Positions 12,274-58,725 of a stretch of DNA of 64,000 bases are shown here, piece after piece (position 1 is the first letter of the stretch; each line of letters starts with the position of its first letter). The notes under the pieces were generated by a model. The model searched no databases and had not been told where the DNA came from. It saw nothing but the letters and a program-made list of their open reading frames with translations. This stretch comes from Candidatus Omnitrophota bacterium (lineage in GTDB: Bacteria > Omnitrophota > Omnitrophia > Omnitrophales > Aquincolibacteriaceae). The stretch is taken from contig JAKLFP010000003.1 in NCBI GenBank assembly GCA_022711115.1, positions 73,199 to 137,198 on the forward strand, given 5' to 3'. The translations under genes and the position numbers were made by a program.

Positions 12274-12551
12274 TTTAGAAATTGATCCTCTTTTCTTTCG
12301 CGTTTCAAGGGGTATTCTCTCGGGTGCATAAGAAACCGAAGCACCGATCCAGACCAATGCGGCGCTTTGCCGCGTTTGTAGAACCGGAGCCCGAGATACG
12401 ACGCCGTCACAATCGCAAGATTCAAGATCAGGTTGTTCGAGAGAACGAAAATGACCATATAAATAACGAGCAATACCAAAAGGTCGAAGAACTCGAGCCC
12501 GAAGATTTTGTTGCTCGTTTGAATTTTGTTGTAGCCTTTGACGGTGTTCAT
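12270..12551 (-). CDS. T4SS VirB3/TrbD-like small membrane protein
   Basis: 93 aa with one or two TM helices, immediately upstream of and translationally coupled to VirB4. Confidence 0.5.
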   Translation of the reverse strand: MNTVKGYNKIQTSNKIFGLEFFDLLVLLVIYMVIFVLSNNLILNLAIVTASYLGLRFYKRGKAPHWSGSVLRFLMHPREYPLKRERKEDQFLK

Positions 12552-12557
12552 TTTTTC

Positions 12558-12872
12558 CTAGAACCTCGTTATGTTTTGAATGAATGCGAGAATCGCGCGG
12601 GAAAGCAGGATCAAAGCACCGCCCGTCGCGGCAAGAGCGCCGCGCTGCATCCCCCGCTCGTCCCCAAGAGCCATGGAGACTCCGGCCACGGCGACTCCGA
12701 TCACGAGCACCGCGGGACCGACGATCCGGATCAGAAAATCACCGACCCCCTCGAGAAAAGCGTTGAGATCGGATTCGGAAGTCGCCTCCGCAAACGCCAT
12801 ATGCGAGCGAAGGAACAAAACCGCTCCGAACAAAAGCACCTTTAGAATTTCGAGTTTGAAGTTTTTTTTCAT
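12558..12872 (-). CDS. T4SS VirB2/TrbC-like pilin
   Basis: 104 aa; signal peptide followed by two hydrophobic segments with a Gly/Ala-rich loop, typical of T-pilin. First gene of the virB2-B10 block. Confidence 0.5.
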   Translation of the reverse strand: MKKNFKLEILKVLLFGAVLFLRSHMAFAEATSESDLNAFLEGVGDFLIRIVGPAVLVIGVAVAGVSMALGDERGMQRGALAATGGALILLSRAILAFIQNITRF

Positions 12873-12967
12873 TCTGTCTCTTTCCCCCTCCCCTAAGGGA
12901 GGGGAGCAGTGAGCGAATCCCCTGTGTGCCTAATGGCAATATTGAGTTGTCGGGATGTCACTGTCCC

Positions 12968-13037
12968 CTCATATAGGGGTCAGAAACGGGCATTTTTTGA
13001 CGGATCGGACGACACCCGTTCTCTAGAAAATATTTTT
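12968..13037 (-). promoter_or_regulatory. ~70-bp conserved element, copy A, upstream of pilin operon (candidate shared promoter/operator)
   Basis: ctcatataggggtcagaaacgggcattttttgacggatcggacgacacccgttctctagaaaatattttt lies 95-165 bp upstream of the VirB2 start. It overlaps the last 4 codons of the regulator gene and is ~93% identical to 23478-23546. Confidence 0.5.
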
Positions 13038-13652
13038 TTGGACCCTCGCGTAAATGTTGGTGAGAGTGCTTTTGGAGACCCCCAATCTTTTGGCGATTTC
13101 GGCAAAACTGAGCCCCTGTTTTTCATGCAGCTCGATAATGCTCTTCTGGTAGGGCGTCAAAGAATGGCTGGCGAGCTTTCTTTTTCGGGAAAGAGCCAGG
13201 ATTTGCATTTCGGCTTTGTGCGCTTTGAGGATCGCAGCCTCGACTCTTTTTTTCAGGTACCACAGGCTATTCTGGTTTATGCCAAGCTTCTGTTGCACCT
13301 GTTCCTCGGAAATCCTGTCCACATACACGAGCTGGTAACAGGCTCGCTGCATAGGCGTAAACTTTGCCTTTTGCGCCAAATGCCTTAGCCTCGAATCCCG
13401 GCTGCGTTCCTCCGCCGCTAATTCGTCTTCTGCTTCGATTCTCGCGAGTTCGTCCGCCGGCGACGGAGCGGATGCCAAATTCTCCTTCACTTCCAGCTCG
13501 AAAGGCGTCAGCTCCTCTTGATACGGATTGTGTTCGATCCTGTGGTAGTCGGCGTTCCTAGACCTCCTTCCCTTTTCGAACCAAACGAGCGATTCCTGCT
13601 CCTCCTTCGCCGGATGTGCGCCAGAAACATCTTCTTTCGCGTTCTTTTCCAT
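13023..13652 (-). CDS. tandem helix-turn-helix DNA-binding protein (two sigma-70 region-4/LuxR-like HTH units)
   Basis: Start at MEKNAKE (ATG 13652, RBS GGAAACG). Two HTH-like segments, QRACYQLVYVDRISEEQVQQKLGINQNSLWYLKKRV and TPYQKSIIELHEKQGLSFAEIAKRLGVSKSTLTNIYARV. The upstream 45 codons of the track ORF lack an RBS. Confidence 0.55.
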   Translation of the reverse strand: MEKNAKEDVSGAHPAKEEQESLVWFEKGRRSRNADYHRIEHNPYQEELTPFELEVKENLASAPSPADELARIEAEDELAAEERSRDSRLRHLAQKAKFTPMQRACYQLVYVDRISEEQVQQKLGINQNSLWYLKKRVEAAILKAHKAEMQILALSRKRKLASHSLTPYQKSIIELHEKQGLSFAEIAKRLGVSKSTLTNIYARVQKNIF

Positions 13653-14378
13653 TTTCGTTTCCTTTCCGCCGTGCGGAAGGAACCGGAAACGGACACAAAA
13701 AAACGGCAATCCGGAAGAGACTGCCGCTTGAGGTAAAATTAAAAATCGAAGATTACTTTCTGAAAAGGGATGTGCATCTGAACACACGATCCCCGGCGAG
13801 GCTTTACCCGAAAAGGGAAAAAGAGCCTTTTAATCGGCCGGAATTCGTGTCGAAGCTATTTCAAGAAAGGCGATCCGGAACGGAGAACTTTTCGAAATAG
13901 CGGGCGTGGAAGATCAATCTGTGGAAGGAGCCCTGTGGCTTCATCCGCGAATGGACGCAAATTACCTGCAAGCGGAGAATCCTCCGCATTGCCGCGTCCA
14001 TTTCGGTGACCCCACACGGCTATGGGTTGAAGCCAAGGCCTTTCGCGCCAGCCCGAAAGCTGTGTTCTGGGACTTGGTTCTGTAATGGGATTGCCATTCT
14101 GACAATCCCGACTCTCAAGGCGCTCCCTGCCTCACGAGTCATGTTGAGAATACGCCACTGCTCTTTCAAGCGATGGCGTTTCAAGATTCGCGACTTTCGC
14201 CACGAGCCTTTTGTTTTTGAGAGCTTCAAGAGAAACCCTAACAGGCAGTTTCGAATTTTGCAAGTTTTCGAATGAGATTTTCGGAATGCCGTAAAAAAAG
14301 AGGATATTTCATTATCAAAACATAGCAACTTTGATCCGTCCGGGCACAAAAAAAGACCGTTTTAAGGCTGCCGCTGTA

Positions 14379-14410
14379 GAAGACGGCGGGGTTCCCTTAC
14401 CGCCGTCTTC
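14379..14410 (-). terminator. stem-loop downstream of gene 14417-14809 (possible terminator)
   Basis: gaagacggcgg/ccgccgtcttc, an 11-bp perfect stem, 7 nt after the stop. The T-run is ~20 nt further downstream, so it is not a canonical terminator. Confidence 0.3.
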
Positions 14411-14416
14411 CGCATG

Positions 14417-14809
14417 TTAACGCTTCCGAAACCAACGCATCAGATCCCGGCCAACATACTTTAATGTCGACCAGGACGAACGCACTTCCGTAGAGACCGA
14501 ATTACTCCGGTGAGCGGGACTATTTTCGGCAGAACAATTCTCCGGTCCATACGAAATGGGCGCTTGAGGCGAAGAAGTTTGTCCCGAAGAATTCTGGACC
14601 GGAGAAACGGCTTGGACATTCTTATCCGGCCTAAGACGAGAGAACACCGAAGCAAATGCTCCGCAGCATCCCTTTGCGAGCAAAAACAGAAGCGCCGCCA
14701 GGATCGTCCACCGCAGGATCCAGCGGAATATCCACGCGCCAAGCCGGATTATTACCTCTTTTACCCATACCACCGCCGTTTTGATCTCGTTTAAAACAAA
14801 TGTCATCAT
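14417..14809 (-). CDS. hypothetical membrane protein
   Basis: MM start preceded by GAGGAGG; N-terminal TM helices (WIFRWILRWTILAALLFLLA). Confidence 0.45.
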   Translation of the reverse strand: MMTFVLNEIKTAVVWVKEVIIRLGAWIFRWILRWTILAALLFLLAKGCCGAFASVFSRLRPDKNVQAVSPVQNSSGQTSSPQAPISYGPENCSAENSPAHRSNSVSTEVRSSWSTLKYVGRDLMRWFRKR

Positions 14810-14860
14810 GATTTTTGAAACCTCCTCTCTTAAGATCCAACATAGAATCTTTCTGCCGGA

Positions 14861-15001
14861 TCAGTATTTGAATTTCTCGAATTTCCATCTCCCTTCACGA
14901 AGCCATTTCTTAAACTCCCGCCGCTCCCGCAAAGTTTCGATCACGGCGTACAGAATCGCGACCGGGATCATGACGAGGAGCAACGCTAAAAAATCATTCA
15001 T
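14861..15001 (-). CDS. small hydrophobic ORF (46 aa)
   Basis: MNDFLALLLVMIPVAILYAVIETLRERREFKKWLREGRWKFEKFKY with RBS GGAGGGTG 5 nt upstream. Below the track's length cutoff. Confidence 0.35.
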   Translation of the reverse strand: MNDFLALLLVMIPVAILYAVIETLRERREFKKWLREGRWKFEKFKY

Positions 15002-15101
15002 AATTCACCCTCCTCTTCCTAAAAAAGAAAACGGAGCACACCGCCTTTGGCGCACTCCGTTTTCGAACTGGTTCGATACGACTACCCGAAACTATTTGCG
15101 T

Positions 15102-15479
15102 TTAGTCTTCTCCTTCCAGCATGATCGTTACGCAAGGCTCCATTTCATCGCCCGGCCCGCACTTCGCCCACATGCGGACAGGTTTTGCCATAGGGTTTCC
15201 CGGCATCACAAAAAGCGGGGCAAAATGGATCTCATCGCCTTTCGAGGATTTTGCGGTCATTCTGAAAACCATGAGAAGATCCCACGCTCTTCCCTTAAGA
15301 TCCTGCCCCGGGCTGCTCGTTTCGTTCAAAACACTGAAGACTCCCTGCGTGACCGCTACCGGAAATTTGATGCCGGCCTCTTTTGCCAGCTCCGAAATAT
15401 CCACAAGCACGCCGTCCTCAAGAGCTTGCTTTCTGGTGTATTTGAAAATAACATCCGCTTCCCCGAAAATATCATCCAT
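15102..15479 (-). CDS. hypothetical protein
   Basis: 125 aa, RBS GGAGGG 8 nt upstream, no recognised motif. Confidence 0.45.
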   Translation of the reverse strand: MDDIFGEADVIFKYTRKQALEDGVLVDISELAKEAGIKFPVAVTQGVFSVLNETSSPGQDLKGRAWDLLMVFRMTAKSSKGDEIHFAPLFVMPGNPMAKPVRMWAKCGPGDEMEPCVTIMLEGED

Positions 15480-15551
15480 GATTTAACCCTCCTGTTTTAC
15501 GAGACACGAAAGGCGGGGTCACAAAACCCCGCCTTTCTGCCGCGTCGTTTT

Positions 15552-16613
15552 TTAAACTCCCGAGAGCTCGAAAAGTTCCGGGGATTCCTCGTTCGCCTCT
15601 CTGCCGCCCCGGCCGCGCCCGAACGAATCCAGACAATCGAAGCTGCACGACTCGCACATGAACCGGCGGCTCATCTCGTCATAGTAAAGCTCCCCCGTCT
15701 CGAATTCGCGGCGGCATGCCGCGCAAACGATCTTCGAATGTTCGCCGATCCCCGAACCTTCGAAGAAGCCGAAGCCCTCGAGGTCCGCGAACGAGAAGAA
15801 ATTCGGCTGACTTCCCGGCCGGAAATCGTCCTCCGCCCAACGCGACGGAGCCGGCCTTTCGCAGGATTTCATCGCGCATACCGTTTTCCGGAGATGGCTT
15901 CTCCCGTTGAAATCCCTGACGTCGGCGGTATAGAGATGATCCTCTTTGATCTGCCAAACGGAACCTTTCAGGCCGTTACGGGCAAGCGCATACTCGAGAT
16001 GTTCCGCGTCGCTGGCCCAGAAAAGCGTCCGGAGGGACGGAACATACGCGATATGGAGGGGCCGATCTTCGTTCCGGATCAAAAAGAGCCGGTCCGGATC
16101 GTTTTTCAGCGAGAAACCCAAAGCAAAATCCCCTTCCATCTCGCTTAGCTTCGATACGAACCCTTTCGAGTCCTTCTCCCCGTCAAGGACCCTGAAAATC
16201 GCTTCGCTGTCGACCGGGGTCGCCGCTTTTTTTCCGTATTTCTTGAGCAACGCCTCGCGGTTCAGGAAATGACCGTTATGCACCCCGAGAAAATCATCCG
16301 ACTCGAAGGGATGGCAGTGGCAGTTCCGGACATCCCCAACCGTTGCGAGGCGGGTATGCCCGAGACAGATCTGCGTGCCCTCCGAGATCGCCCGGATCAT
16401 TTTCTGGAACCGTTTCGTCCTGAGGAGTTTCCCAGCGGGCGACGCTTCCTTGAACATCATCCACTTCCCACGGGAAAGCAGCGCGATCCCGGTCCCGTCC
16501 TTTCCCCGCGTTTCGTTCAGAAACGCAAGATCCATCACGGCCCCCCTGATCCTGAAGCGTTCAAGAACATTCAAATGCCCTTCTTTCCTTGCAAATCCGT
16601 AGATTCCGCACAT
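15552..16613 (-). CDS. class II (Ntn-type) glutamine-amidotransferase-like protein with C-terminal zinc ribbon; predicted partner of the amidoligase
   Basis: True start MCGIYGF (Met-Cys N-terminus typical of class II GATases) at ATG 16613 with RBS AAGGAGGA. C-terminal CAACRREF...YYDEMSRRFMCESCSFDC is a CxxC...CxxC ribbon. The 59-codon track extension has no RBS. Confidence 0.75.
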   Translation of the reverse strand: MCGIYGFARKEGHLNVLERFRIRGAVMDLAFLNETRGKDGTGIALLSRGKWMMFKEASPAGKLLRTKRFQKMIRAISEGTQICLGHTRLATVGDVRNCHCHPFESDDFLGVHNGHFLNREALLKKYGKKAATPVDSEAIFRVLDGEKDSKGFVSKLSEMEGDFALGFSLKNDPDRLFLIRNEDRPLHIAYVPSLRTLFWASDAEHLEYALARNGLKGSVWQIKEDHLYTADVRDFNGRSHLRKTVCAMKSCERPAPSRWAEDDFRPGSQPNFFSFADLEGFGFFEGSGIGEHSKIVCAACRREFETGELYYDEMSRRFMCESCSFDCLDSFGRGRGGREANEESPELFELSGV

Positions 16614-16663
16614 GACACGATCCTCCTTGTTTTTTCGAGTTGGATTGTTCGATAGCAGCCTGA

Positions 16664-17941
16664 TTAAACAGCCGGGCAGGAAAAACGTTCGGGATGGAAC
16701 TTCGCGACGCGGTCGCGCATATACGCGCCGAGCCCCGCAGGAACGCCGAGGAACGAGACGAATCCCTCGAAACGCTCCTTGAAACCGCAATTCGGAAGCG
16801 CCTTGAACGTCTTACTCTCTTTCGCTTTGTCAACGAGCGCCTGGCAGATCACGATGAAATTCGTGATCTTCTGGGCGTTCAAAGTCCCGGAATGGTAACG
16901 GAACTCGAGCGAGCGCCTGAAAAACCAGGAGTGGATATTGAGCCCGTAGTAGCGGGAGTGGTGATACTTGGACTTGAGGTCGACTCTCCCGCTCCCCCGG
17001 GGGCCATACCAGAGCTTTTTGAGCGCTTCTTCGTCCCTTGCCGCGATCCGGAACCTCGATTTCGGAAACCGTTCGAGCGGGACGGAATAACTTCCCTCAT
17101 GGCGGGATTCGGGAAGCATGGCGTAAAGCACCGGCTCGAAGTATCGCGTGATCTTGAGGATCTTCTTGATGTCCTCGCACCCAAGATCCCGGCCGTCGAT
17201 ATGCACGTGAAGACCGCAGGAGCGGTTCACGAAATAACCCCACCCTTGAAGGATCCCCGCGAATTTCCGGATCTCATGGAATCCTTCGTCTCCTTGGAGG
17301 ATGGGGCTTACGTACTCCCGCCCGTCGTCTCCTAAAGACCCGTCCGTCACCTGTTTCCAGTCCTTGAGCCGTTCGTGCGGAAGATGCTCCGCTCCCTCTC
17401 CCATCATGGCCTCGATTTCGATCCCGTACTTGCGCGGGGACGGACATACGGAGAAACTCTTTCCGGAAAATTCGGGATACCTGGGCGAAGCGTCCGTTTC
17501 GCGGCTGTCCCAGCAGTCCTCGCAATATTCGTCGCCGTCGTCGTTGCGGAAACACGAATCGGGATCGATCTGATCGCGGCACGCGGCGCAATACGTCACG
17601 CGCTCGCTAAAACAACTCTCGCAATAATCCCGGTCGTGAAGCTCGGAATAATGCGCGCGGCCGGTCGGGACATACTCTTCGCATCCGGCACAATACCGGA
17701 AATTCTCGTCCAGGCATTCCCCGCAATAGCATTTCCCGTTTACTTTCTTCATTTCCTCTTTCCAAAAGACTTCGCCGCATTGGGCGCATGCCCCGGCCAG
17801 CTCGTGAAAACAGTCCCGGCACAGGACTTTGCCTCCGTGCTCGAGATACACGAGTCCCGGATCTTCGGCGCGGCAGTTCGAACAGATCTTGAGACCGGAG
17901 GCCGCAGCGGGCTCTTTCGAAAGTTGAACGCTTGTTGTCAT
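16664..17941 (-). CDS. Amidoligase_2-family (glutamine-synthetase-like fold) protein fused to an N-terminal array of ~4 CxxC...CxxC zinc ribbons
   Basis: C-terminal half GIEIEAMM...GLHVHIDGRDL...YYGLNIHSW...LEFRYHSGTLNAQKITNF matches the Amidoligase_2 (PF12224) pattern, which starts with the G-x-E-x-E block. N-terminal 140 aa carry CSNC..CRDC, CAQC..CGEC, CAGC..CESC, CAAC..CEDC. RBS AAAGGAGA. Confidence 0.65.
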   Translation of the reverse strand: MTTSVQLSKEPAAASGLKICSNCRAEDPGLVYLEHGGKVLCRDCFHELAGACAQCGEVFWKEEMKKVNGKCYCGECLDENFRYCAGCEEYVPTGRAHYSELHDRDYCESCFSERVTYCAACRDQIDPDSCFRNDDGDEYCEDCWDSRETDASPRYPEFSGKSFSVCPSPRKYGIEIEAMMGEGAEHLPHERLKDWKQVTDGSLGDDGREYVSPILQGDEGFHEIRKFAGILQGWGYFVNRSCGLHVHIDGRDLGCEDIKKILKITRYFEPVLYAMLPESRHEGSYSVPLERFPKSRFRIAARDEEALKKLWYGPRGSGRVDLKSKYHHSRYYGLNIHSWFFRRSLEFRYHSGTLNAQKITNFIVICQALVDKAKESKTFKALPNCGFKERFEGFVSFLGVPAGLGAYMRDRVAKFHPERFSCPAV

Positions 17942-17985
17942 GGAGAATCTCCTTTCGCGTTGAAAAAAAGTTGTCTTTGGCGTTT

Positions 17986-18648
17986 TTAAAGCTGGTTACG
18001 TTCCGAAAAACTGAAGTATTGGTTCTCGCCGACGATGATGTGATCGAGAACGCGGACCGAAACCGTCTGGCAGGCCGCTTTGATTTTCTGAGTGATCTCG
18101 TAGTCCTCGCGGCTTGGTTCGATCTTCCCGGAGGGGTGGTTATGAACGAGCACGATATTCGACGAATTCCGAAGAAGCGCTTCTTTCACGACCTCGCGGG
18201 GATGCACGGCGGCTTCGTCGACCGTGCCGAAAAAGATGTCTTTGTCGCCGAGAATCTTCAGGGCTTTGTCGAGAAACATCACCCTGAAGACCTCCCGCTT
18301 CAGGTCTCTCAGGCTCGCCGAAAGATAGTCCGTGACCGCTTGGGGACTCCGGACGAAGCTCTGGCCGATGATCCCCTGCCTCAGAACGCGGCGGCCGATC
18401 TCCCGGACGGCCTGAAGCTGGATCCTTTGCGCCTCCGGCAAATCCCCGAGATCGAAAAGCTGGCGGAGCCCGCCCGCCTTATTCAGGATCTCGAGGGCAA
18501 CATCCACTTCCGTTTGCTCGTAAGTGCACTTTTTCAGGATAAGAGACAAAAGCTCGGCGTCCGATAACGCTTCGATTCCTTTGTCTTTCGCCCGCGCCGA
18601 AGGTTGCTCGCTCTCCGGCCAATCCTTGACCGATAATTTTTTTCGCAT
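17986..18648 (-). CDS. radC: RadC-family JAB/MPN-domain protein
   Basis: HNHPSG JAMM motif and RadC N-terminal signature (KDWPESEQPSAR...GIEALSDAELLSLIL aligned to LPEEERPRERL...GAEALSDAELLAILL). Start at MRKKLSV (ATG 18648, RBS AAGGAGA). Confidence 0.8.
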   Translation of the reverse strand: MRKKLSVKDWPESEQPSARAKDKGIEALSDAELLSLILKKCTYEQTEVDVALEILNKAGGLRQLFDLGDLPEAQRIQLQAVREIGRRVLRQGIIGQSFVRSPQAVTDYLSASLRDLKREVFRVMFLDKALKILGDKDIFFGTVDEAAVHPREVVKEALLRNSSNIVLVHNHPSGKIEPSREDYEITQKIKAACQTVSVRVLDHIIVGENQYFSFSERNQL

Positions 18649-18722
18649 GACTGCGGTCTCCTTTGAAGACAAAAAGGGCGGGAAGAACGAAATGCTCTCC
18701 CCGCCCGCCGTTGAAAGATCCT

Positions 18723-18815
18723 TCACTTCACGATTACTTCCCAGCCGCGGCGTCTGAAACGCTCGATCAGCGCGGCGTATTTGATCTCATCTGCTTTGCG
18801 GATAATGAGACGCAT
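18723..18815 (-). CDS. possible small ORF (30 aa, basic)
   Basis: MRLIIRKADEIKYAALIERFRRRGWEVIVK preceded by a strong GGGAGGTG 6 nt upstream; it sits between the PC4-like gene terminator and radC. Could equally be a leader or decoy. Confidence 0.25.
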   Translation of the reverse strand: MRLIIRKADEIKYAALIERFRRRGWEVIVK

Positions 18816-18830
18816 GGAAATCACCTCCCT

Positions 18831-18884
18831 CTTTTTAAAAATGAAAAGGGGGGAAACGGTCGAAAATGCGGACCGCTTCCCCCT
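18831..18884 (-). terminator. rho-independent terminator after PC4-like gene 18911-19429
   Basis: Minus-strand GC stem (gggggaagcggtc/gaccgtttccccc) followed by TTTTCATTTTTAAAAAG. Confidence 0.55.
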
Positions 18885-18910
18885 CTGTTTGCCGTTTAAA
18901 CCCAGCCGCT

Positions 18911-19429
18911 TTAGGCCGGCTGAACGGACGTTTCCACCGGCATCGGTTCGGCTTCCGGGCTCTGGAGAGCCGCTGCGACACCCTCGACGGACGACTCGAG
19001 GATCGACAGCGCCTTCCTGGAACTCGGGATGAAGCTCCCTTCGCCGCCCTTGAAAGCGTACGAGATCCGAACGATGCGGTTTTTGGGGCCCCGCACTTTC
19101 GAGATCTGGTACTGCTCGGTTTCCGAAACCGCGACCGCGCTCACGAACGCCGTCTCGCAGTTTTTGCCTTCGGACGGCTCGGGAATCTCGGCGGCGTTTT
19201 TCGCCGCGAGGAGAGCCGCCGCGATTTCGCGGCGGAGCCGGGCAAGGACGTTCACGCCTTCCCGGGTCTTCCTGAGTTTCCCGTCCTTCGTGTAATACAC
19301 GCGGAGGTCGAGAAAGTGTTTGCCTTCCTTGCCCGTCCACGCGGAAACGCGGTAGATATCGTTCCCGTTCCGCGGAACGTCCGCGATGATCTTGTTTTCG
19401 TTTTTGCTGATTTCCTTTTGAGTTTCCAT
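18911..19429 (-). CDS. PC4/YdbC-like putative ssDNA-binding protein (172 aa)
   Basis: DIYRVSAWTGKEGKHFLDLRVYYTKDGKLRKTREGVNV matches the PC4-like core. RBS AAAGGAGAAAC. The overlapping 252-aa Arg-rich frame is judged spurious. Confidence 0.45.
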   Translation of the reverse strand: METQKEISKNENKIIADVPRNGNDIYRVSAWTGKEGKHFLDLRVYYTKDGKLRKTREGVNVLARLRREIAAALLAAKNAAEIPEPSEGKNCETAFVSAVAVSETEQYQISKVRGPKNRIVRISYAFKGGEGSFIPSSRKALSILESSVEGVAAALQSPEAEPMPVETSVQPA

Positions 19430-19514
19430 TGTCTTGTTTCTCCTTTTTTGATTTTTGAATTGGATTTTTCCTGCTATTCAAATGCCTCGTTTTTCCTGGG
19501 TTTCACCTCCCTTT

Positions 19515-19557
19515 CGAAAATAAAAAGGAGAAGCGGGTCGAAATGACCGGCTTCTCC
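19515..19557 (-). terminator. rho-independent terminator after PC4-like gene 19580-20083
   Basis: Minus-strand stem ggagaagccgg/ccggcttctcc followed by TTTTTATTTTCG. Similar in sequence to the 18831-18884 terminator. Confidence 0.6.
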
Positions 19558-19579
19558 GAAGTTGTCGTCCCCCGTTTTT

Positions 19580-20083
19580 TCAAAGAGAACGGGCGCGCTT
19601 GGCGCGTTCAAGGCCCGCGATCACCCGCTCGATCAACCGCATCTCGATCACGGTCCCTTTCCTGTAATACGGGCTCCACTTCCGGCCTACGTTCAGCATC
19701 ATCCGCCTGAGCTCCACGAACTGCGCGTCCTTCTTGCGGAGCTTGTAGAAGCGGTAGATGTCCCACTCCGAAATATAGAACTGCCAGGCGATGATTCTGT
19801 TTTCCTCCGCCCCGCACAAAGACCTCCTGGCAGGCGTATTCTTGGCGAGGGTAAGCCCTTCGATTACGTCCCCCAGAAGTTCCCTTTCGATCCAGAGGCC
19901 TTCGATCCTCGGGATCAAACGGGCGGGATCCTCGATCGCCCGGGCGAAAACCCTTAGGTCGACGTGCCTCATCCCGCGGTATTCCTTGTTGGAAATGCGG
20001 TAGATCTCCCGTTCGTTGATCGGGATATCGCAGATCACCTTCGTTTTGAAATCGTCGTTTCTCTTGTAATCCAGTCCAAGCAT
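19580..20083 (-). CDS. PC4/YdbC-like putative ssDNA-binding protein (167 aa)
   Basis: Start MLGLDYK at ATG 20083 with RBS AAAGGAG 7 nt upstream. EIYRISNKEYRGMRHVDLRVFAR aligns with the other two PC4-like genes. Confidence 0.45.
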   Translation of the reverse strand: MLGLDYKRNDDFKTKVICDIPINEREIYRISNKEYRGMRHVDLRVFARAIEDPARLIPRIEGLWIERELLGDVIEGLTLAKNTPARRSLCGAEENRIIAWQFYISEWDIYRFYKLRKKDAQFVELRRMMLNVGRKWSPYYRKGTVIEMRLIERVIAGLERAKRARSL

Positions 20084-20239
20084 TTGATGCTCCTTTCTTC
20101 GCTGAAAAAGCAAAAGGAGAGAAACGCAAACCGCGCGCATCTCTCCTTTGGTTGAAAACAAAATAAGCGGAGCACGCCAAACCGGCACGCTTCGCTTATT
20201 CGTCGGATTTACTTGAAGTTATGAAGCCCGAAACCGGGC

Positions 20240-22084
20240 CTAGACCGCTTTGTTTCTCGTGTTTTTCACCTCCTTCACGACCTCGAGCGGATTATCCGCC
20301 TTGACCGGGCCGAGTTTCTCTTTGAATTTTTCGAGAAGTTTCAGTTCTTCCACAAGCTCTTCGTCTTCGAAAATATCGGGGTTGTGGTTCGGCTTGAATT
20401 CGCCGCGATAAGCGGGGTGCCCGAAGAAATCGAGTTTCACGTAGTCGGTAAGAAGCGACGGACTTTTCCAGATCACGACCGCTTCCCCGCGCTTAAGGGC
20501 CCGGATAAGATCGGGCTCGATCCGGAAAGTCTGCCCCTCCCGGACCGAGCCGGTGCCGGTAAAGCCCTTGCCGAGGATCTTATCTTCCGTCTGATAAGTA
20601 GAAATCATGGTCGTGCGGGTGCCGCCGATCTTCGAGAATTTCTCGACCGAGATGGGGTCATCCTGCCTCAGAACGATCTTGATATTGGTATTTTCCATCA
20701 CCTGCTGTTGAAAGTTCGGAATGCCGCGGAAATAAAGATCCCCAAGCGACTGATGAAGGATCGTGACCGCAAAACCGCTCGCCCGGCATTTGTTGAGGAA
20801 ATCGATAAAATTAAGCTCCAAAAAACTCGAGGCATCGTCGATGAAAACCGGGAAGAAATGACGGCGGTGTTCCGGAATTTTGGCCTGGATGTGGCTGGAA
20901 ACGGCGCGGATATCCTGGATCACCATCCTCCCGAGACGGCGGGAGGTGTCCGCGTATTTCTGAAGATCGAGGGCGAAATAGCAGATCTGGTTTTTATTAT
21001 AGACCCTTAACAGATCGATTTCCGGACGGACCGTGTCCAGAAGGTCCGAAAACTCGCTCCGAGACGTGAGATAAAGGTCCGCCATGAGCCCGGAAAGGAA
21101 CTTCTGATTGTCTTTGAAGCTACTCACCATCTTTCCGATATCATCCTTGAGAACGGGATCCTGAGTCTCGTCGGAAAGCTTCGAGAGAGCGTCGACGTCC
21201 GTGAGATATGCGTGAAGATCCCGGAATCTCGTGCTTTTTTTCCGTTTCCGGGAAGCGATCGCGTTGAAAAGCGTAAGCGCGGCGCGCTCGGCCATCCTCC
21301 GGTAAAACTCCTCGCTCCAGACCATGCTGTTGATCAGTTTGTCTTTGAGTTCCGTGGGATTCCCCCTGAAAAGAGGGTTATAGGTATTGGATTTATCGGG
21401 ATGAGCCAGCGAGAAAAAGAAGAAGTCATCCCCGCGGTTTTTCTCTTTGACGATGTATTGGATCCGGTTTAGGAGCTCGAGATCCCCTTTCCCGTCGAGG
21501 ATAATAGCGCCTTTACCGCGTGCGATATCGTGGGCAAGCATGGGAAGGAGCACGGATTCGGTCTTTCCGGTCCCGGTGCTTCCCACCACTTCGCAGTGCA
21601 TTTGGCGCTGGTCGTTGGTGAGATAAAGAGGCTTGCCTCTCCTGAAACTTTCGCCGAGATAGACCTTGTGATAATCGGACGCGAGCCGGTTCCGGCGCAT
21701 GGTTCCCGGGGCAGGGTCGATTCTCCGGTCTTCGGACTTGAACTTCGAATCCTGAGTGAAATAGGCGAAAAGTATGAAAACGGGAAGCGTAGCGGCCGTG
21801 TAAACGCCGTAGAATAGCGCGAAGCGGATGCCGCCCTGCCAGTTCTGATTCACGAACCCATTCTGGAAAAGCAGGTTTATACCGTCAAGCAGCCGGCTTA
21901 AACCGAGGATCGCCCCTGCGGAAAACAGGACCGGGATGCCAAGCACCATTCTTTCGACCCGAGGTTTTCCGATCCTTGAAACGAGGAGTAAAAAACTCCG
22001 GGCGATCCCGAGCGGAACCGCGATGAATATTCCCGTGATCAATTTGACGAGAAACGGTTCTTGTCTTCCCGGAGGTTTTGTCAT
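20240..22084 (-). CDS. virD4: type IV coupling protein (VirD4/TraG/TraD family)
   Basis: N-terminal TM helices, Walker A VVGSTGTGKTESVLLP, ~610 aa, adjacent to the putative relaxase. Confidence 0.85.
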   Translation of the reverse strand: MTKPPGRQEPFLVKLITGIFIAVPLGIARSFLLLVSRIGKPRVERMVLGIPVLFSAGAILGLSRLLDGINLLFQNGFVNQNWQGGIRFALFYGVYTAATLPVFILFAYFTQDSKFKSEDRRIDPAPGTMRRNRLASDYHKVYLGESFRRGKPLYLTNDQRQMHCEVVGSTGTGKTESVLLPMLAHDIARGKGAIILDGKGDLELLNRIQYIVKEKNRGDDFFFFSLAHPDKSNTYNPLFRGNPTELKDKLINSMVWSEEFYRRMAERAALTLFNAIASRKRKKSTRFRDLHAYLTDVDALSKLSDETQDPVLKDDIGKMVSSFKDNQKFLSGLMADLYLTSRSEFSDLLDTVRPEIDLLRVYNKNQICYFALDLQKYADTSRRLGRMVIQDIRAVSSHIQAKIPEHRRHFFPVFIDDASSFLELNFIDFLNKCRASGFAVTILHQSLGDLYFRGIPNFQQQVMENTNIKIVLRQDDPISVEKFSKIGGTRTTMISTYQTEDKILGKGFTGTGSVREGQTFRIEPDLIRALKRGEAVVIWKSPSLLTDYVKLDFFGHPAYRGEFKPNHNPDIFEDEELVEELKLLEKFKEKLGPVKADNPLEVVKEVKNTRNKAV

Positions 22085-22090
22085 GACGCA

Positions 22091-22858
22091 TCATAGGATT
22101 TCGCAGAGAGCGAAGCTTGCCGCCTTGTTTTCAAATACAGCATCCCCTTTCTTTTGGGTAAGTTCACGGTAGGTCGTGATCCAGACCCGTTTCACGTCGT
22201 AATCCATGACGGTAACCAGCCAGTCTTTGACGTCTCCATCGATGATCAGGAACAAAAGCACGTAGTTCTCGTGCTGCCTGTAATAATTCAGCATAGCTTG
22301 ATACCGCACCATCTGCTTGGTTAACCCGAGATTTTCGAATTCGATGGCGATTCTTTTGCCGCCGATATTGAGAATCCCGTCGGGAACTTTCTTCAAATGA
22401 TCCCGGTCCCGCGCCACTCTTTCGCTGGTCCACGAATCGAGGCCGAGATCCCGGAAAAGAATCCTGAGATTCAGGACTTTTAGGTCATGGTCGATGCTCC
22501 GGTCGAACCATTCCGTCGGTTCATAAAGCATAAGCCCGGAATCGAGGCCGCGGTCCTGGAGAATCTTAAAAGACTTTGCGGTCACGAAATAAACGTCCAG
22601 GCTCTTTCTTGACGAGTAACCTTTGTCGAGAAAGCCGGAGCGAACAAGCCTTTCGACCCGTTTGTAGCAGGTTTTGGCCGAAACGGTCCGGTTCTTCCAA
22701 AAACCCTCCCGGATCTGGCTGTAAACGATATATCGGTGCTCATGCGCAAGCTTGAAAATCGCGATGTCCCGGGCCGTCAGATCAAGCGGATCTAAAGGCT
22801 TTGTTTCGTCCTCTTCCTCGAAATTCCCGGGTTGTGCGTTTTCTTCGCTCAAGATCAT
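22091..22858 (-). CDS. Replic_Relax-family protein (putative relaxase/mobilisation protein)
   Basis: N-terminal LTARDIAIFKLAHEHRYIVYSQIREGF...YKRVERLVRSGFL matches the winged-helix start of the replication-relaxation family (PF13814). It lies immediately upstream of virD4. Start uncertain (ATG 22858 or TTG 22891). Confidence 0.55.
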   Translation of the reverse strand: MILSEENAQPGNFEEEDETKPLDPLDLTARDIAIFKLAHEHRYIVYSQIREGFWKNRTVSAKTCYKRVERLVRSGFLDKGYSSRKSLDVYFVTAKSFKILQDRGLDSGLMLYEPTEWFDRSIDHDLKVLNLRILFRDLGLDSWTSERVARDRDHLKKVPDGILNIGGKRIAIEFENLGLTKQMVRYQAMLNYYRQHENYVLLFLIIDGDVKDWLVTVMDYDVKRVWITTYRELTQKKGDAVFENKAASFALCEIL

Positions 22859-22910
22859 CCTCCCGAAAGGTTTTCTTTCAGGATCTTTCAAGAGAAAGCG
22901 ATCCTGACCC

Positions 22911-22945
22911 GGAGGGAAAAGAGAATCCGAGTCTCTTTTCCCTCC
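22911..22945 (-). promoter_or_regulatory. perfect 14-bp-stem inverted repeat between gene 22959-23408 and the relaxase gene (oriT candidate / attenuator)
   Basis: ggagggaaaagaga atccgag tctcttttccctcc; no T-tract follows. Confidence 0.4.
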
Positions 22946-22958
22946 ATTGCATACCCGC

Positions 22959-23408
22959 TTAACGGCCCAAGCGGCCCGTCAGGCGCTCGGCAACTCCCAG
23001 CACATCGTGTACGAACCGGTTCTGCTCCCGCGTCATATCGACGCGGTAACGGTTCTGTTCGCGCAGAAGGCCGACTTGATCGGCGGGTTTTGACTGAATT
23101 ATCACCGGCTGATTTACATGGGGAATGACCGCCGGGCTCCGCGGGACCATAAAATCCGTAGAAGCTTCGGCCCGTCCTCCCGAGTATTTCAGCCATGTTC
23201 TCACGCCCTCATTGACCATCGTCACGAGTAAAAAGGACGCGAAAACAAGAATCGCAACGAACTTCGCTTTCGAAATCGCTTTCTTGCTTTCACGGCGCGG
23301 CATCTCGATGACTTGCACTGCCGCGTAACGTCTGAATCTCGAAACATCTCTGACGTTCGGAGACATCTCACGTCTTTTGCTCATCTCTAGAGTACTCATA
23401 TCGCTCAT
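22959..23408 (-). CDS. hypothetical membrane-anchored protein, first gene of mobilisation operon
   Basis: RBS AAAGGAGATG, one TM helix (FVAILVFASFLLVTMV), internal repeat REQNRYRVDMTREQNRFVHDV. The conserved 70-bp element lies 70-140 bp upstream. Confidence 0.4.
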   Translation of the reverse strand: MSDMSTLEMSKRREMSPNVRDVSRFRRYAAVQVIEMPRRESKKAISKAKFVAILVFASFLLVTMVNEGVRTWLKYSGGRAEASTDFMVPRSPAVIPHVNQPVIIQSKPADQVGLLREQNRYRVDMTREQNRFVHDVLGVAERLTGRLGR

Positions 23409-23477
23409 CTCCTTTTGGCTCTAACGCCGAATTACCTCCCAAGTCTAGGATTGGGTGTTTTTGTTTTTAATGCATCT

Positions 23478-23546
23478 CTCATATAGGGGTCAGAAACGGG
23501 CATTTTTTGACGAATCGGACGACACCTGCCCTCTAGAAATATTTTT
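23478..23546 (-). promoter_or_regulatory. ~70-bp conserved element, copy B, upstream of mobilisation operon
   Basis: ctcatataggggtcagaaacgggcattttttgacgaatcggacgacacctgccctctagaaatattttt; ~64/69 identical to copy A, with the same orientation relative to the downstream minus-strand genes. Confidence 0.5.
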
Positions 23547-23756
23547 AAAAGGGCTTTTTTTCTATTTCTCTGAATTTCGTTTTTGGGAAGTCGAGCCGGA
23601 TTTTAGCGCACCCAGGCACGGCTCTAACCATCCGACTACGGTCTCGAGTCTCATTTTCAAGACGAGAGAGCGTAGTCGGATGGTGGGTGGAGTTTGTCAC
23701 CAGTGGGGACCCAGAATAAGGCGTGCCGGGGTGCGGGAATCAAAACGACGGACATG

Positions 23757-24128
23757 TCAGGCGCAGCGCCCGCCGCCAAAGAGAATGGGAGGATTGGCGT
23801 TCGTGGCGAGGAATATGTAACGGCGGGTGTGACATTTCTTGCAGTAGCGACCGATCCCTTCGAAAATCTTCCGGTAAACCGAGCGGCAGGAAGGACACCG
23901 GTAAATGGCGATACTGATGTCGGGTCTCCCTTTGATGCCGTGCCATTCACCGTGCCGGAGCACCTGCGCGCATTTTACGCAGGTGATTTCAAGCTTGCCG
24001 GGCTCGATGGATCCCGTCGACACATCACACAAGAGCCGGCCGCAATCACAAGCGCACCGGACCTCGGCGATATCACTCTCACCATGCTCTTTCTGCGGCG
24101 GCAATCCCGCGTTTGGCTGCGTATCCAT
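23757..24128 (-). CDS. Cys-rich protein with Mu Com-like zinc finger plus second zinc ribbon
   Basis: EVRCACDCGRLLCDVSTGSIEPGKLEITCVKCAQV resembles the Com zinc finger (RCpnCgklL...g.ieIKCpRC), followed by YRCPSCRSV...YCKKCH. High GC and an overlapping plus-strand ORF make this uncertain. Confidence 0.4.
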   Translation of the reverse strand: MDTQPNAGLPPQKEHGESDIAEVRCACDCGRLLCDVSTGSIEPGKLEITCVKCAQVLRHGEWHGIKGRPDISIAIYRCPSCRSVYRKIFEGIGRYCKKCHTRRYIFLATNANPPILFGGGRCA

Positions 24129-24278
24129 AACTTGTAACTTTCATACCCGCCTTTCCTTGGATTTTTCGTCTGCCGGCCCAGACAAGCCTTCACTTTCTAA
24201 ATCACAAAAACAGCCAGATAATAAAAAACCCTGCAACAAATTAAATCGTACAAAAAAACCGTATATCGCACGCACTTT

Positions 24279-24306
24279 AATTTGTGACAGGGCTGGTATC
24301 ACAAAT
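24279..24306. promoter_or_regulatory. inverted repeat aatttgtga-N11-tcacaaat (operator-like)
   Basis: 8-bp arms containing TGTGA/TCACA half-sites, located ~90 bp downstream of the lacI-family gene and ~150 bp upstream of the Com-like ORF. Confidence 0.25.
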
Positions 24307-24387
24307 AAACCAAGTTATTGGCACCGCTTTACTGCTGGCTCTCCTCTGGCTTGGAAGCCAATTATTTAAAAAACATGAAACGATCGA

Positions 24388-25449
24388 TCAGGCGGTCTGC
24401 CGCGCTACGATCTCGGGAATATAACGGCGCTGGACCGCTTCTTCATCTCCGAACTCGATCTTGTCGATCACAAGACCCACGGCATCCTGTCCTATCTGAT
24501 AAAGAGGCTGCCTGACGGTCGTAAGGCTTGGGGAGATCACTTTCCCTTTTTCGATATCGTCGAAACCTATAAGCGCTACCTTCTCGGGACACCACATTTT
24601 GGCTTCCTTCAAAGCTTTTAATGCGCCAATCGCGATATCATCATTCCCGCAACAAATCGCCCGCGGTAAATTCCCCTGTTCGATCCATTCCTTCATCTTG
24701 TTGTAGGCGTCCGCTTCGCGGTAAGTGACGCATTCCCTGATCCATTGCGGTTTCAAAAGCAGTTTGTTCTCTTTGATCCCCTCTTGGAATCCTTTTAGTT
24801 TCTCTTCCGCGTCCACGCAATTCTGATGGAGTTCCTTGCCGTCGGTTTCGAAAACTGCGGCCCGAGGTCGGGCAAGATAACCGATTCGCTTGTACCCTCT
24901 CCCCGCAAGATAGGACACCGCCATTTTCATGCCTTCCCGAACATCGGTGTAAAGGATATTGGTTTTCAGATTACTGTCGAAATCGTTCATCACCACGAGC
25001 GGGAGATCCGGCAGGCAGTTTTCGATCAATTGGATCAAGTGCGGATTAAAGCGCCACGTGATAACGATCAGGCCGTCCACTCCGTATTCACCGAAAAGAT
25101 CCTCGGCGCGGGCGAGTTGCTTCTCTTTCATGCGGAAAAGCTTGAGGTCATGGCCAGTCCTGAAGATCTGGTCCACAATACCGGCCATGATCCCCATGTG
25201 GTAGCCGGAATGAATGATGTCTTTTGAAAGCGAAGTAAGTACCCCAATATTGTATTTGCGTAAAGCTCGCCGCAACCGCGCAAACGCCATGGGTTTATAG
25301 CCAAGCTTTTGGATCGCGAGCTCGATACGGGCACGAAGATCCGCCCTTACCGTATGCCGCGTCCTAGGAGACAAATAACGGGTTATAGTCGCCTGCGAGG
25401 TCTCGGCTTCCCGCGCCACATCCTGAATCGAAGGTCTTTCTTTGCTCAT
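24388..25449 (-). CDS. LacI/GalR-family transcriptional regulator
   Basis: N-terminal HTH SIQDVAREAETSQATITRYL plus a periplasmic-binding-protein-like sugar-binding core; 353 aa. Confidence 0.85.
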   Translation of the reverse strand: MSKERPSIQDVAREAETSQATITRYLSPRTRHTVRADLRARIELAIQKLGYKPMAFARLRRALRKYNIGVLTSLSKDIIHSGYHMGIMAGIVDQIFRTGHDLKLFRMKEKQLARAEDLFGEYGVDGLIVITWRFNPHLIQLIENCLPDLPLVVMNDFDSNLKTNILYTDVREGMKMAVSYLAGRGYKRIGYLARPRAAVFETDGKELHQNCVDAEEKLKGFQEGIKENKLLLKPQWIRECVTYREADAYNKMKEWIEQGNLPRAICCGNDDIAIGALKALKEAKMWCPEKVALIGFDDIEKGKVISPSLTTVRQPLYQIGQDAVGLVIDKIEFGDEEAVQRRYIPEIVARQTA

Positions 25450-28374: not shown

Positions 28375-28743
28375 CTACTTCGTATATATTTCTTCTAAAA
28401 TTTTCCCGGTTTTAATATCAACTCGATATGTTGACTCCCCACCACTTGCCCAAAAATTTTCTTTTTTATCAACCCCAATACCAACAAAAAGATCCCTTCT
28501 GAAAAATTTTTTCCCTGTCCGCCATTCATCTGGGTCCTGAATTCGCCACAAAATTTCTCCCACGTCATTGACGCATACAATATTTCTATCGGGTGTCTTC
28601 TCACCCTCGGCTTTAAATCGCACCACAATATATTGATTCCCAACAACTAAGGCATCGCCGATTTCATGATCCATAGCAATGGTTCGACATGTTTCATTTC
28701 TTTTAATATTTAAATTATTTTTTTGAAACGAAAGATTAATCAT
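28375..28743 (-). CDS. hypothetical protein; candidate immunity protein for the giant protein's C-terminal domain
   Basis: 122 aa; its ATG overlaps the last 8 nt of the 4439-aa ORF. AT-rich. Confidence 0.4.
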   Translation of the reverse strand: MINLSFQKNNLNIKRNETCRTIAMDHEIGDALVVGNQYIVVRFKAEGEKTPDRNIVCVNDVGEILWRIQDPDEWRTGKKFFRRDLFVGIGVDKKENFWASGGESTYRVDIKTGKILEEIYTK

Positions 28744-55900: not shown

Positions 55901-55979
<79 letters not shown>

Positions 55980-57449: not shown

Positions 57450-57484
57450 TTCACGAAAAGCCCGGCAGAGAAATCTGGCGGGCT

Positions 57485-57530
57485 TTTTATTTAGCCGCTT
57501 ACCCCTCCCCTCCAGACGCCGTCCGGTTTT
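57485..57530 (+). repeat. P repeat copy 1 (tttatttagccgcttacccctcccctccRgacgccRtccggttttt)
   Basis: Second copy at 59552-59598 with 2 substitutions; contains a small hairpin ccggacgccatccgg plus T-run. Confidence 0.6.
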
Positions 57531-58720: not shown

Positions 58721-58725
58721 AGTTG

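What the first reader, a model, noticed from the sequence alone, without database searches (positions are those of the whole stretch)
12968..23546. Two copies of a ~70-bp element (~93% identical) placed upstream of the pilin operon and upstream of the mobilisation operon
Copy A (12968-13037) and copy B (23478-23546) share ctcatataggggtcagaaacgggcattttttgacgRatcggacgacacc…ctctagaaa(a)tattttt. Both lie 70-165 bp upstream of the first minus-strand gene of an operon (virB2 operon; 149-aa / relaxase / virD4 operon) in the same orientation. Copy A overlaps the stop codon of the tandem-HTH regulator gene. A shared promoter/operator that co-regulates pilus and DNA-processing operons would fit, and the tandem-HTH protein is the obvious candidate binder. 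Alternatively they are direct repeats bounding a 10.4-kb cargo insertion (13038-23477).
Basis: seen in the sequence. Interest (0 to 1): 0.6.

Follow-up and report, generated by a model that had tools for sequence, protein, structure and literature searches.

The report
Twin promoter cassettes heading two conjugation operons
A type IV secretion island in an uncultivated Omnitrophota bacterium carries the same ~70-base control sequence in front of its DNA-processing operon and its pilus operon, and related islands each keep their own matched pair, so it is most likely a shared, island-specific promoter/operator that switches both operons on together.

Summary
Copy A (12968-13037) and copy B (23478-23546) are about 93% identical. 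Both lie in gene sense on the minus strand, 95 nt and 69 nt upstream of the pilin (TrbC/VirB2) gene and of the first mob-operon gene.

I fetched 36 related Omnitrophota T4SS loci. All 11 that cover both operon heads have one such pair at the same two places. A profile of the copies hits nowhere else.

The last ~50 nt are 91% identical within an island but only 60% between islands. This holds even for islands in the same MAG.

Identity always stops at the same point (…ATGAG). Operon-specific, conserved leaders begin there. The pilin leader's closing helix starts at that base and shows covariation, so the boundary is probably the transcription start. The repeat would then span about -70 to -1.

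A small sigma70-region-4-type HTH gene always ends inside the pilin copy and is the likely binder. This is inferred, not shown.

The cargo-insertion reading is rejected. The logic resembles TraR tra boxes or SetCD boxes, but the components are new. Interest is moderate.

The parts
12968..13037 (-). Copy A (pilin-operon copy) of the repeat. The core -50..-1 is 12968-13017. The A/T block AAAAAAATATTTT is 13027-13039 and overlaps the last codons (KNIF) and the stop codon of the HTH gene.
   Evidence: positional homologues in 13 loci
23478..23546 (-). Copy B (mob-operon copy) of the repeat. The core -50..-1 is 23478-23527. The A/T block AAAAATATTT is 23537-23546 and is non-coding here.
   Evidence: positional homologues in 23 loci
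12873..12967 (-). Pilin-operon leader, which starts where the repeat ends. The closing helix pairs GGGGACAGTGA (12967-12957) with TCACTGCTCCCC (12912-12901). A CCCCTCCC..GGGGAGGGG hairpin (12904-12885) covers the Shine-Dalgarno region.
   Evidence: covariation of the closing helix in 13 loci
23409..23477 (-). Mob-operon leader: an A-rich start, then hairpin CCCAA-N8-TTGGG (23455-23438), then GGC-GTTAGA-GCC. It is conserved, with compensatory changes, across 22 distinct loci.
13023..13652 (-). 209-aa regulator candidate. It has an N-terminal VDFxRVE..PFELEVK motif and two sigma70-region-4-like HTH units. Its stop codon lies inside copy A.
12558..12872 (-). TrbC/VirB2 pilin gene, first gene of the Mpf operon (followed by VirB3-like, VirB4, VirB8/9/10-like genes).
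22959..23408 (-). 149-aa ORF, first gene of the mob operon.
22091..22858 (-). 255-aa protein with a weak MobC/replication-relaxation match (putative relaxase).
20240..22084 (-). Type IV coupling protein (VirD4/TraG family). It was used as the anchor to fetch related islands.
23627..23684 (.). Inverted repeat (25-nt arms, 88% complementary) about 80 nt upstream of copy B. Large inverted repeats occur at the same relative place in related loci. It is a candidate oriT or a terminator of the upstream Zn-ribbon gene.
   Evidence: (I10)

Best explanation
The two copies are one promoter/operator cassette used twice. One copy heads the DNA-transfer (mob, T4CP, cargo) operon. The other heads the mating-pair-formation (pilin, VirB) operon of an Omnitrophota type IV secretion island. 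Transcription most likely starts at or within a few bases of the repeat's 3' end (window 12967 and 23477, minus strand), so the repeat covers about -70 to -1. The ~50-nt core is island-specific. It is probably read by RNA polymerase together with an island-encoded factor, most likely the sigma70-region-4-type HTH protein whose gene ends inside the pilin copy. One signal would then fire both operons together, while each operon keeps its own structured leader for separate post-transcriptional control. Shown: position, orientation, conservation of the pairing, exclusivity, the sharp boundary, and leader structure. Inferred: the transcription start, the identity of the binder, and whether it activates or represses.
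For: 1. The repeat is real and not chance.
2. All 11 related islands that cover both operon heads have one direct-repeat pair of 39-86 nt. One copy is 60-150 nt upstream of the first mob ORF. The other lies between the HTH gene and the pilin gene.
3. A profile of the copies hits only those two places, always in gene sense, in about 0.5 Mb of loci: 30 of 30 hits.
4. Core -50..-1 is 0.91 identical within an island and 0.60 between islands. For 17 of 22 copies the partner is the nearest neighbour. Islands co-resident in one MAG differ, at 54-75%.
5. Identity ends at the same base in every island (…ATGAG or …TATAG). After it come AGA… in mob copies and GGGG… in pilin copies. The downstream leaders are unrelated within an island (0.42) but conserved between orthologues (about 0.6).
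6. The pilin leader's closing helix starts at base -1/+1. Paired cells are 83.8% against 72.5% in shuffles (0 of 500 reach it). Double-change cells number 17 against 6.7.
7. The core itself has no conserved RNA structure, which fits a DNA-level role.
8. The HTH gene's stop codon lies 50-56 nt before the boundary in 12 of 13 loci.
9. The two islands with a single-HTH version (L041, L037) have the shortest repeats, 39-44 nt against 55-86 nt.
Against: No transcript data exist, so the start site is inferred only from the boundary and the leader structure. The sigma-70 consensus scan finds nothing at either copy. By eye, a -35-like TTGAAY/CCGAAM and a TAnnnT-like hexamer can be placed in some islands. 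One large subgroup has TCCCAT where a -10 should be. The upstream genes are co-oriented at both copies (HTH; a Zn-ribbon gene), so read-through transcription across the repeat cannot be excluded. High within-pair identity at nearly every core position could reflect gene conversion rather than protein contacts. The link between HTH number and repeat length rests on only 2 single-HTH islands.
Confidence: 0.68

Rival explanations
1. The core is transcribed and acts at the RNA or elongation level. It could be a shared leader segment: a processive-antitermination or pause signal, a binding site for an RNA-binding regulator, or an endonuclease processing site that cuts at the boundary and creates the 5' ends of the two structured leaders.
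For: Upstream genes are co-oriented at both copies and no intrinsic terminator separates the HTH gene from the pilin copy. The boundary is as sharp as a cleavage site would be. No canonical sigma-70 hexamers are present. Both operons are long (over 9 kb and over 12 kb), the kind that use antitermination in other conjugative elements (my own knowledge: RfaH/ops in F, conAn in pLS20).
Against: The core has no conserved secondary structure and its folding energy is like that of shuffles. No NusG/RfaH-like or RNase gene was seen in the island. The A/T block and -35-like hexamers sit where promoter elements would lie relative to the boundary. No Rfam family matches.
Confidence: 0.12
2. The two copies are paired sites for a DNA-processing enzyme (relaxase nic-like sites or recombination sites). 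A 10.5-kb module holding mob, T4CP, cargo and HTH could then be nicked at one copy and closed at the other, or excised as a circle.
For: The repeats are direct and end at an exact, conserved point. This resembles nic sites, where only the 5' side is recognised (my own knowledge). One copy sits next to the relaxase-like operon. Concerted evolution is typical of sequences that recombine.
Against: No recombinase lies in the interval and the module lacks the T4SS genes. The core lacks the inverted repeat usual next to nic sites, while a large inverted repeat just upstream of the mob copy is a better oriT candidate. Each copy is followed at once by a leader with a Shine-Dalgarno sequence and the first gene of an operon. 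The pilin copy overlaps the end of a coding sequence.
Confidence: 0.05
3. The copies are direct repeats left by, or bounding, a cargo insertion at 13038-23477.
For: Two direct repeats flank a block that includes accessory genes: RadC, amidoligase, GATase, DUF6573.
Against: The block also holds the T4CP and the relaxase-like gene. The same flanking arrangement is kept in 11 of 11 islands with T4CP identity down to 49% and with differing cargo. No island lacks the interval while keeping a single copy. Mob-only contigs always show the copy at the operon head.
Confidence: 0.02
4. The repeat is a functionless duplication kept similar only by gene conversion.
For: Within-pair identity is high at almost all core positions.
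Against: Placement, orientation and the exact 3' end are conserved across deeply diverged islands. In close relatives the copies keep type-specific (mob or pilin) differences, so conversion is not continuous. In the 5' A/T block, mob copies share AATTTATTTC across islands and pilin copies share AAAATATTTTC, which points to independent selection on each.
Confidence: 0.03

Closest known systems
TraR tra boxes of Agrobacterium Ti plasmids
   Same: One plasmid-encoded HTH regulator of the LuxR/GerE (sigma-4-like) fold acts on copies of the same cis-element placed at the promoters of both the Dtr operons (traAFBH/traCDG) and the Mpf operon (traI-trb). The boxes sit at about -45 or -65 relative to the start site (PMC3907764).
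   Different: Tra boxes are 18-bp palindromes within otherwise different promoters. Here about 50-70 nt, the whole region up to the putative start site, is duplicated, and the core is not palindromic. The regulator here has no ligand-binding domain. It has a novel N-terminal motif and one or two region-4 units. There is no sequence homology.
SetCD / AcaCD boxes of SXT/R391 ICEs and IncA/C plasmids
   Same: A master regulator encoded by the element binds a conserved box near the -35 of many transfer-operon promoters, so that they fire together (PMC4344509; PMC4207636 listed).
   Different: The box is 19 bp, the activator is FlhDC-like, and the targets are many promoters. Here there are two targets and a much longer shared sequence that differs between islands.
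Repeated operator or promoter modules of broad-host-range plasmids (IncP KorA/KorB/TrbA operators; IncN CUP repeats)
   Same: Repeated regulatory sequences sit upstream of several backbone operons and tie Dtr and Mpf expression to plasmid-encoded repressors (my own knowledge; not checked in papers here).
   Different: Those are repressor operators embedded in recognisable sigma-70 promoters of Proteobacteria. Here no sigma-70 consensus is detectable and the host is an uncultivated Omnitrophota lineage.
Phage-type single-subunit RNA polymerase promoters (T7/SP6: …CACTATAG|GGAGA)
   Same: A long conserved sequence ends exactly at the start site and is followed by a purine-rich initial transcript. 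Some islands read …AATACTATAG|GGGG and …AATACTATAG|AGAG. The comparison with T7/SP6 is from memory.
   Different: No RNA-polymerase-like gene was seen in the island. Most islands end in …CCCATGAG. I treat the resemblance as superficial.

Membership tests
Shared operator/activator box of conjugative transfer operons (tra-box or SetCD-box type) | The same cis-element lies upstream of two or more transfer operons of one element | tested here: met
   Window copies lie upstream of the pilin and mob operons. The same is true in 11 of 11 related islands covering both heads.
Shared operator/activator box of conjugative transfer operons (tra-box or SetCD-box type) | An element-encoded DNA-binding regulator recognises the element | not testable with these tools
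   A candidate exists: the HTH gene is always adjacent and its HTH copy number tracks repeat length. Binding needs EMSA or footprinting.
Shared operator/activator box of conjugative transfer operons (tra-box or SetCD-box type) | The element lies at a fixed position relative to a mapped transcription start | tested here: inconclusive
   No start site is mapped. The repeat's 3' end coincides with the first base of a covarying leader helix, which suggests the start lies there.
Sigma-70-type promoter | TTGACA-like and TATAAT-like hexamers 16-19 nt apart | tested here: not met
   The consensus scan of 12500-24500 gives no site at either copy. By eye there are only partial matches: GTCAAA…TATATG in the window, TTGAAT with no -10 in another subgroup.
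Direct repeats bounding an inserted mobile or cargo segment | The repeats mark the ends of a segment that is absent in relatives and/or carries a recombinase | tested here: not met
   The interval holds the T4CP and relaxase-like genes and no recombinase. The arrangement is present in all relatives.
oriT / relaxase nic site | A single site next to the relaxase gene, with an inverted repeat 5' of nic | tested here: not met
   There are two copies, one next to the pilin operon. The core has no conserved inverted repeat. A separate large inverted repeat upstream of the mob copy fits oriT better. Cleavage was not testable.
Known RNA families (Rfam 15) | Covariance-model match | tested here: not met
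   Nothing at gathering score except a tRNA. Only chance miRNA-like hits at E up to 1 around either copy.
Sigma-70 family sigma factor (for the HTH protein) | Region 2 (core-binding, -10 recognition) together with region 4 | tested here: not met
   Region 4 matches are found in 29 of 31 family members, and no Sigma70_r2 is among the families listed. The TIGR02937 match covers only model positions 85-159. Foldseek's best matches are ECF and sigma-28 factors, but at E about 1e-2 and TM 0.25-0.35. The protein is sigma-4-like, not a sigma factor by this test.

The most novel reading that the evidence does not exclude
Each island carries a private transcription circuit. The ~50-nt core would be the full recognition site of a new family of island-encoded, sigma-4-only proteins (N-terminal VDFxRVE…PFELEVK module plus one or two region-4 units). 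These would act as dedicated promoter-specificity factors for host RNA polymerase and would co-evolve with their two promoters. Several islands could then coexist in one genome without cross-talk.
Probability: 0.2. Interest if true: 0.65.

Novelty: new variant of a known kind. Interest (0 to 1): 0.45.

Why it matters
Nothing is known experimentally about gene regulation in Omnitrophota, a phylum without cultured free-living representatives. I also found no description of this island family's control regions in the searchable literature.

- The paired cassettes give a precise, testable handle: two predicted start sites, a 50-nt specificity region and a candidate regulator family. These could be moved into a heterologous host.
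- The pattern is a clean natural example of a cis-element and its putative factor diverging together. Cores match within an island and differ between islands, even in the same genome.
- If the factor proves to be a promoter-specificity subunit, the islands would supply a set of orthogonal promoter/factor pairs.
- If the cassette proves to be an ordinary activator-dependent promoter, the finding is a routine extension of the tra-box or SetCD logic to a new phylum.

Tried and rejected
- **Exact-match scans.** I scanned metagenome contigs and genome contigs for the 20-mer invariant between the window and L007. Both gave 0 hits, so the sequence is too island-specific for exact searches. I switched to anchoring on the T4CP protein.
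- **Narrow nhmmer profile.** A profile built from the window copies alone found only L007 and weak L025 hits. A profile of all pairs was needed.
- **Word-indexed search with the HTH protein.** It found only one relative. The full HMMER scan found about 50 cluster representatives.
- **Sigma-54 reading.** One L041 copy has TGGC…TTGCA, but the GG is not conserved in its partner or elsewhere and the spacing is 10, not 12 (by eye). Rejected.
- **Sigma-32-like reading** (TTGAA … CCCAT). The spacer of about 21 nt is too long (by eye). Rejected.
- **Small ORF starting at the ATG of …ATGAG.** The reading frames are not conserved and some islands lack the ATG. Rejected.
- **T7-like promoter.** No polymerase gene is present. 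Rejected.
- **RNA structure in the core.** None was found.
- **Transcript-like contig ends.** I looked for contig ends at the predicted start site via contigs encoding the pilin. The result was uninformative.
- **Host promoter consensus.** Deriving it from the single tRNA upstream region was not possible.
Full report
**Observation**

The two copies exist as described. Alignment of the two regions and the repeat finder (family D3) give 12968-13036 and 23478-23546 as a 69-nt direct repeat. Ungapped identity is 90%, and about 93% with one 1-nt indel. A 49-nt core with a single R position occurs exactly twice in the 64-kb window, with none in 100 shuffles.

All genes here are on the minus strand, and both copies read in gene sense.
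- Copy A ends 95 nt before the ATG of a TrbC/VirB2 pilin gene (12558-12872). VirB3-like, VirB4 and VirB8/9/10-like genes follow.
- Copy B ends 69 nt before a 149-aa ORF (22959-23408). After it come a weak MobC/replication-relaxation match, a VirD4-type coupling protein, and cargo genes: RadC, amidoligase, GATase and DUF6573.
- The stop codon of a 209-aa protein with two sigma70-region-4-like HTH units (13023-13652) lies inside copy A.
- A source names the identical protein as coming from a Candidatus Omnitrophota MAG.

**Related islands**

Exact scans for a 20-mer shared with the one close relative (L007) found nothing in either collection. I therefore anchored on the coupling protein. It has many Omnitrophota homologues. 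An alignment of them retrieved 36 loci from GTDB genomes.

Self-comparison of each locus, a tblastn gene map and one local alignment for L037 gave these results.
- Every one of the 11 loci covering both operon heads has one direct-repeat pair of 39-86 nt: the window, L012, L014, L015, L019, L021, L024, L025, L027, L037 and L041.
- One copy lies upstream of the first mob ORF. The other lies between the HTH gene and the pilin gene.
- A profile built from these copies hits only those two positions, always on the gene strand: 30 of 30 hits in about 0.5 Mb.
- Contigs covering only one operon head show the matching single copy. In total there are 23 mob and 13 pilin copies.

**Pattern of conservation**

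| Segment (relative to the 3' end of the repeat) | Identity within an island | Identity between islands |
|---|---|---|
| Core, -50..-1 | 0.91 (range 0.75-1.00) | 0.60 |
| 5' part, -80..-51 | 0.66 | 0.57-0.63 |
| Leaders, +1..+50 | 0.42 (unrelated) | 0.59-0.63 (orthologues) |

- For 17 of 22 copies the most similar copy anywhere is the partner in the same island.
- Islands binned in the same MAG have different cores (54-75%), while each keeps its own matched pair.
- Within-pair mismatches cluster in the 5' third. That part contains a conserved A/T block (AAAAATATTTT).
- In the pilin copy the A/T block encodes the C-terminal K-(K/N)-I-F of the HTH protein. In the mob copy it is non-coding.
- Across one subgroup of islands, mob copies share AATTTATTTC and pilin copies share AAAATATTTTC. 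This part therefore evolves copy by copy, whereas the core evolves in concert.

**The 3' boundary**

In every island the identity stops at the same base, after …ATGAG, …TATAG or …GTGAG. Mob copies continue AGA… and pilin copies continue GGGG….

The pilin leaders fold into a closed, multi-branched structure. Its closing helix begins at base -1/+1 and pairs with a C-rich segment 65-75 nt downstream. Individual folds have z-scores of -1.5 to -6.4.

On an alignment not fitted to any structure, RNAalifold predicts that helix. Pair counting supports it:
- 83.8% of cells paired, against 72.5% in shuffles (0 of 500 reach it);
- 17 double-change cells, against 6.7 in shuffles;
- a better score than every slid register.

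A second hairpin pairs a CCTCC-type segment with the Shine-Dalgarno sequence. Mob leaders have their own conserved hairpins with compensatory changes.

By contrast, the core has no conserved RNA structure and folds no better than shuffles. No Rfam family matches anything here.

A structured RNA that begins exactly where two otherwise unrelated leaders diverge from a shared, unstructured upstream sequence is what a transcription start looks like. I therefore place +1 at or within a few bases of 12967 and 23477. This is an inference.

**Promoter elements**

The sigma-70 consensus scan finds no site at either copy. With the boundary as anchor, a -35-like hexamer lies at about -35 to -28: TTGAAT/TTGAAC in one subgroup, CCGAAM/ACGAAA in another, GTCAAA in the window. 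A TAnnnT-like hexamer lies at -9 to -3 in many islands (TACTAT, TATAGT; TATATG in the window). The largest subgroup has TCCCAT there.

The promoter is therefore non-canonical, and probably depends on a factor. I could not settle which bases are which.

**The candidate factor**

- In all 13 loci with a pilin copy, the ORF just upstream is a homologue of the HTH protein. Its stop codon is 50-56 nt before the boundary in 12 of them.
- A full HMMER scan of 1.84 billion representatives finds 82 matches (E up to 0.001), of which about 50 are full-length family members of roughly 200 aa. The family is small and restricted.
- Members share an N-terminal motif (VDFxRVE(D/N)…PFELEVKxKLA…SPxDEL) followed by two region-4-like HTH units.
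- Region-4 models match 29 of 31 members, and no region-2 model appears.
- The AlphaFold model is confident (pLDDT 85.8). A 36-residue helix separates the two HTH units.
- Foldseek's best PDB matches are ECF and sigma-28 factors, but weakly (E about 1e-2). The best sequence match in the PDB is a small two-HTH protein, 2lvs.
- L041 and L037 encode versions with the same N-terminal motif but a single HTH. Their repeats are the shortest: 39 and 44 nt against 55-86 nt. This is suggestive, but n = 2.

**Most likely mechanism**

One cassette is used twice, so the DNA-processing/cargo operon and the pilus/secretion operon are switched by the same island-specific signal. The likely agent is the adjacent sigma-4-type protein acting with RNA polymerase. 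Each operon then adds its own leader-level control.

I put 0.68 on the promoter/operator reading and about 0.5 on the HTH protein being the binder. Whether it activates or represses cannot be told from sequence.

**Rivals**

- **Transcribed element (0.12).** This would be an antitermination, RNA-binding or processing site. It remains possible because upstream genes are co-oriented and no terminator is evident. The lack of RNA structure argues against it.
- **Paired nic or recombination sites (0.05).** The exact boundary and the concerted evolution fit. However, the interval lacks a recombinase and the T4SS genes. The core lacks an inverted repeat. A large inverted repeat just upstream of the mob copy (23627-23684, with counterparts in other loci) is a better oriT candidate.
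- **Cargo insertion (0.02).** This is contradicted by the content of the interval and by its conservation in all relatives.
- **Functionless duplication (0.03).** This is contradicted by the conserved placement and the fixed end point.

**Comparison with known systems**

The logic matches TraR tra boxes at Dtr and Mpf promoters of Ti plasmids (PMC3907764). It also matches SetCD/AcaCD boxes at transfer promoters (PMC4344509). From my own knowledge, it further resembles the repeated operators of IncP and the CUP modules of IncN plasmids.

It differs in several ways. Nearly the whole promoter (50-70 nt) is duplicated, rather than an 18-19-bp box. The core differs from island to island while staying matched within each. 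The regulator family is new. Papers on Omnitrophota that mention secretion systems do not describe this island or its control regions.

I rate it a new variant of a known kind, of moderate interest.

Noticed in passing
window 13953-14140 (minus strand); L007:3328-3540; L025:19991-20082: A conserved, structured non-coding block lies in the 760-nt gene-free gap upstream of the HTH gene. It is about 90% identical to L007, while flanking coding DNA is about 70%. The RNA fold gives -86.7 kcal/mol with z = -4.5, and there is no Rfam match. It is a candidate ncRNA or long leader controlling the regulator gene.
   Followed up: partly
window 12873-12967 (minus strand) and the equivalent regions of 12 loci: The pilin-operon 5' UTR is a conserved structured RNA of about 70-95 nt. 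It has a closing helix with covariation, internal hairpins, and a hairpin that sequesters the Shine-Dalgarno sequence. It is not in Rfam and may be a translational control element for the pilin.
   Followed up: partly
window 23409-23477 (minus strand) and 22 loci: The mob-operon leader has a conserved hairpin with compensatory changes (CCCAG…CTGGG; CCCAA…TTGGG in the window) and a conserved loop (TCCAAAAC-like). A GGC-N6-GCC hairpin follows. An A/T-rich TATAAAT-like motif sits at about +5 to +12 in mob copies only. It could be regulatory RNA or part of oriT.
   Followed up: partly
window 23627-23684; similar inverted repeats in L008, L016, L018, L023, L024, L027, L031, L041: A large inverted repeat (25-nt arms in the window) lies between an upstream Zn-ribbon gene and the mob copy, and is conserved in position across islands. 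It has no U-tract, so it is not a typical terminator. It is an oriT candidate.
   Followed up: no
window 22911-22945; L014, L015, L016, L018, L024, L039: A 28-35-nt palindrome lies between the 149-aa ORF and the MobC-like gene and is conserved in position in related islands. Its function is unknown; it could be an attenuator or a protein-binding site.
   Followed up: no
window 23757-24128 (minus strand): A 123-aa protein with four CxxC pairs (Zn-ribbon-like) is encoded just upstream of the inverted repeat and mob copy. Weak homologues of similar size sit at the same place in L013, L017, L021 and L025, so the conserved island extends beyond copy B.
   Followed up: partly
L012/L041, L015/L021, L016/L019, L020/L022, L027/L034/L040: Single MAGs carry two or more islands of this T4SS family, each with a different core sequence (54-75% identity between islands). 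L034 and L040 look like two halves of one island (92%).
   Followed up: partly
window 57479-60107: A cluster of 44-73-nt direct and inverted repeats (families D1, D2, D4, D6; I1-I15), including hairpins AGGAGGCGTTACTG…CAGTAACGCCTCCT, lies next to a 390-aa ORF (56034-57206) and tRNA-Met (55901-55977). It may be a second mobile element or an array of repeated terminators or REP-like units.
   Followed up: no
window 28736-42055 (minus strand): A giant 4439-aa ORF, of the kind reported for Omnitrophota.
   Followed up: no
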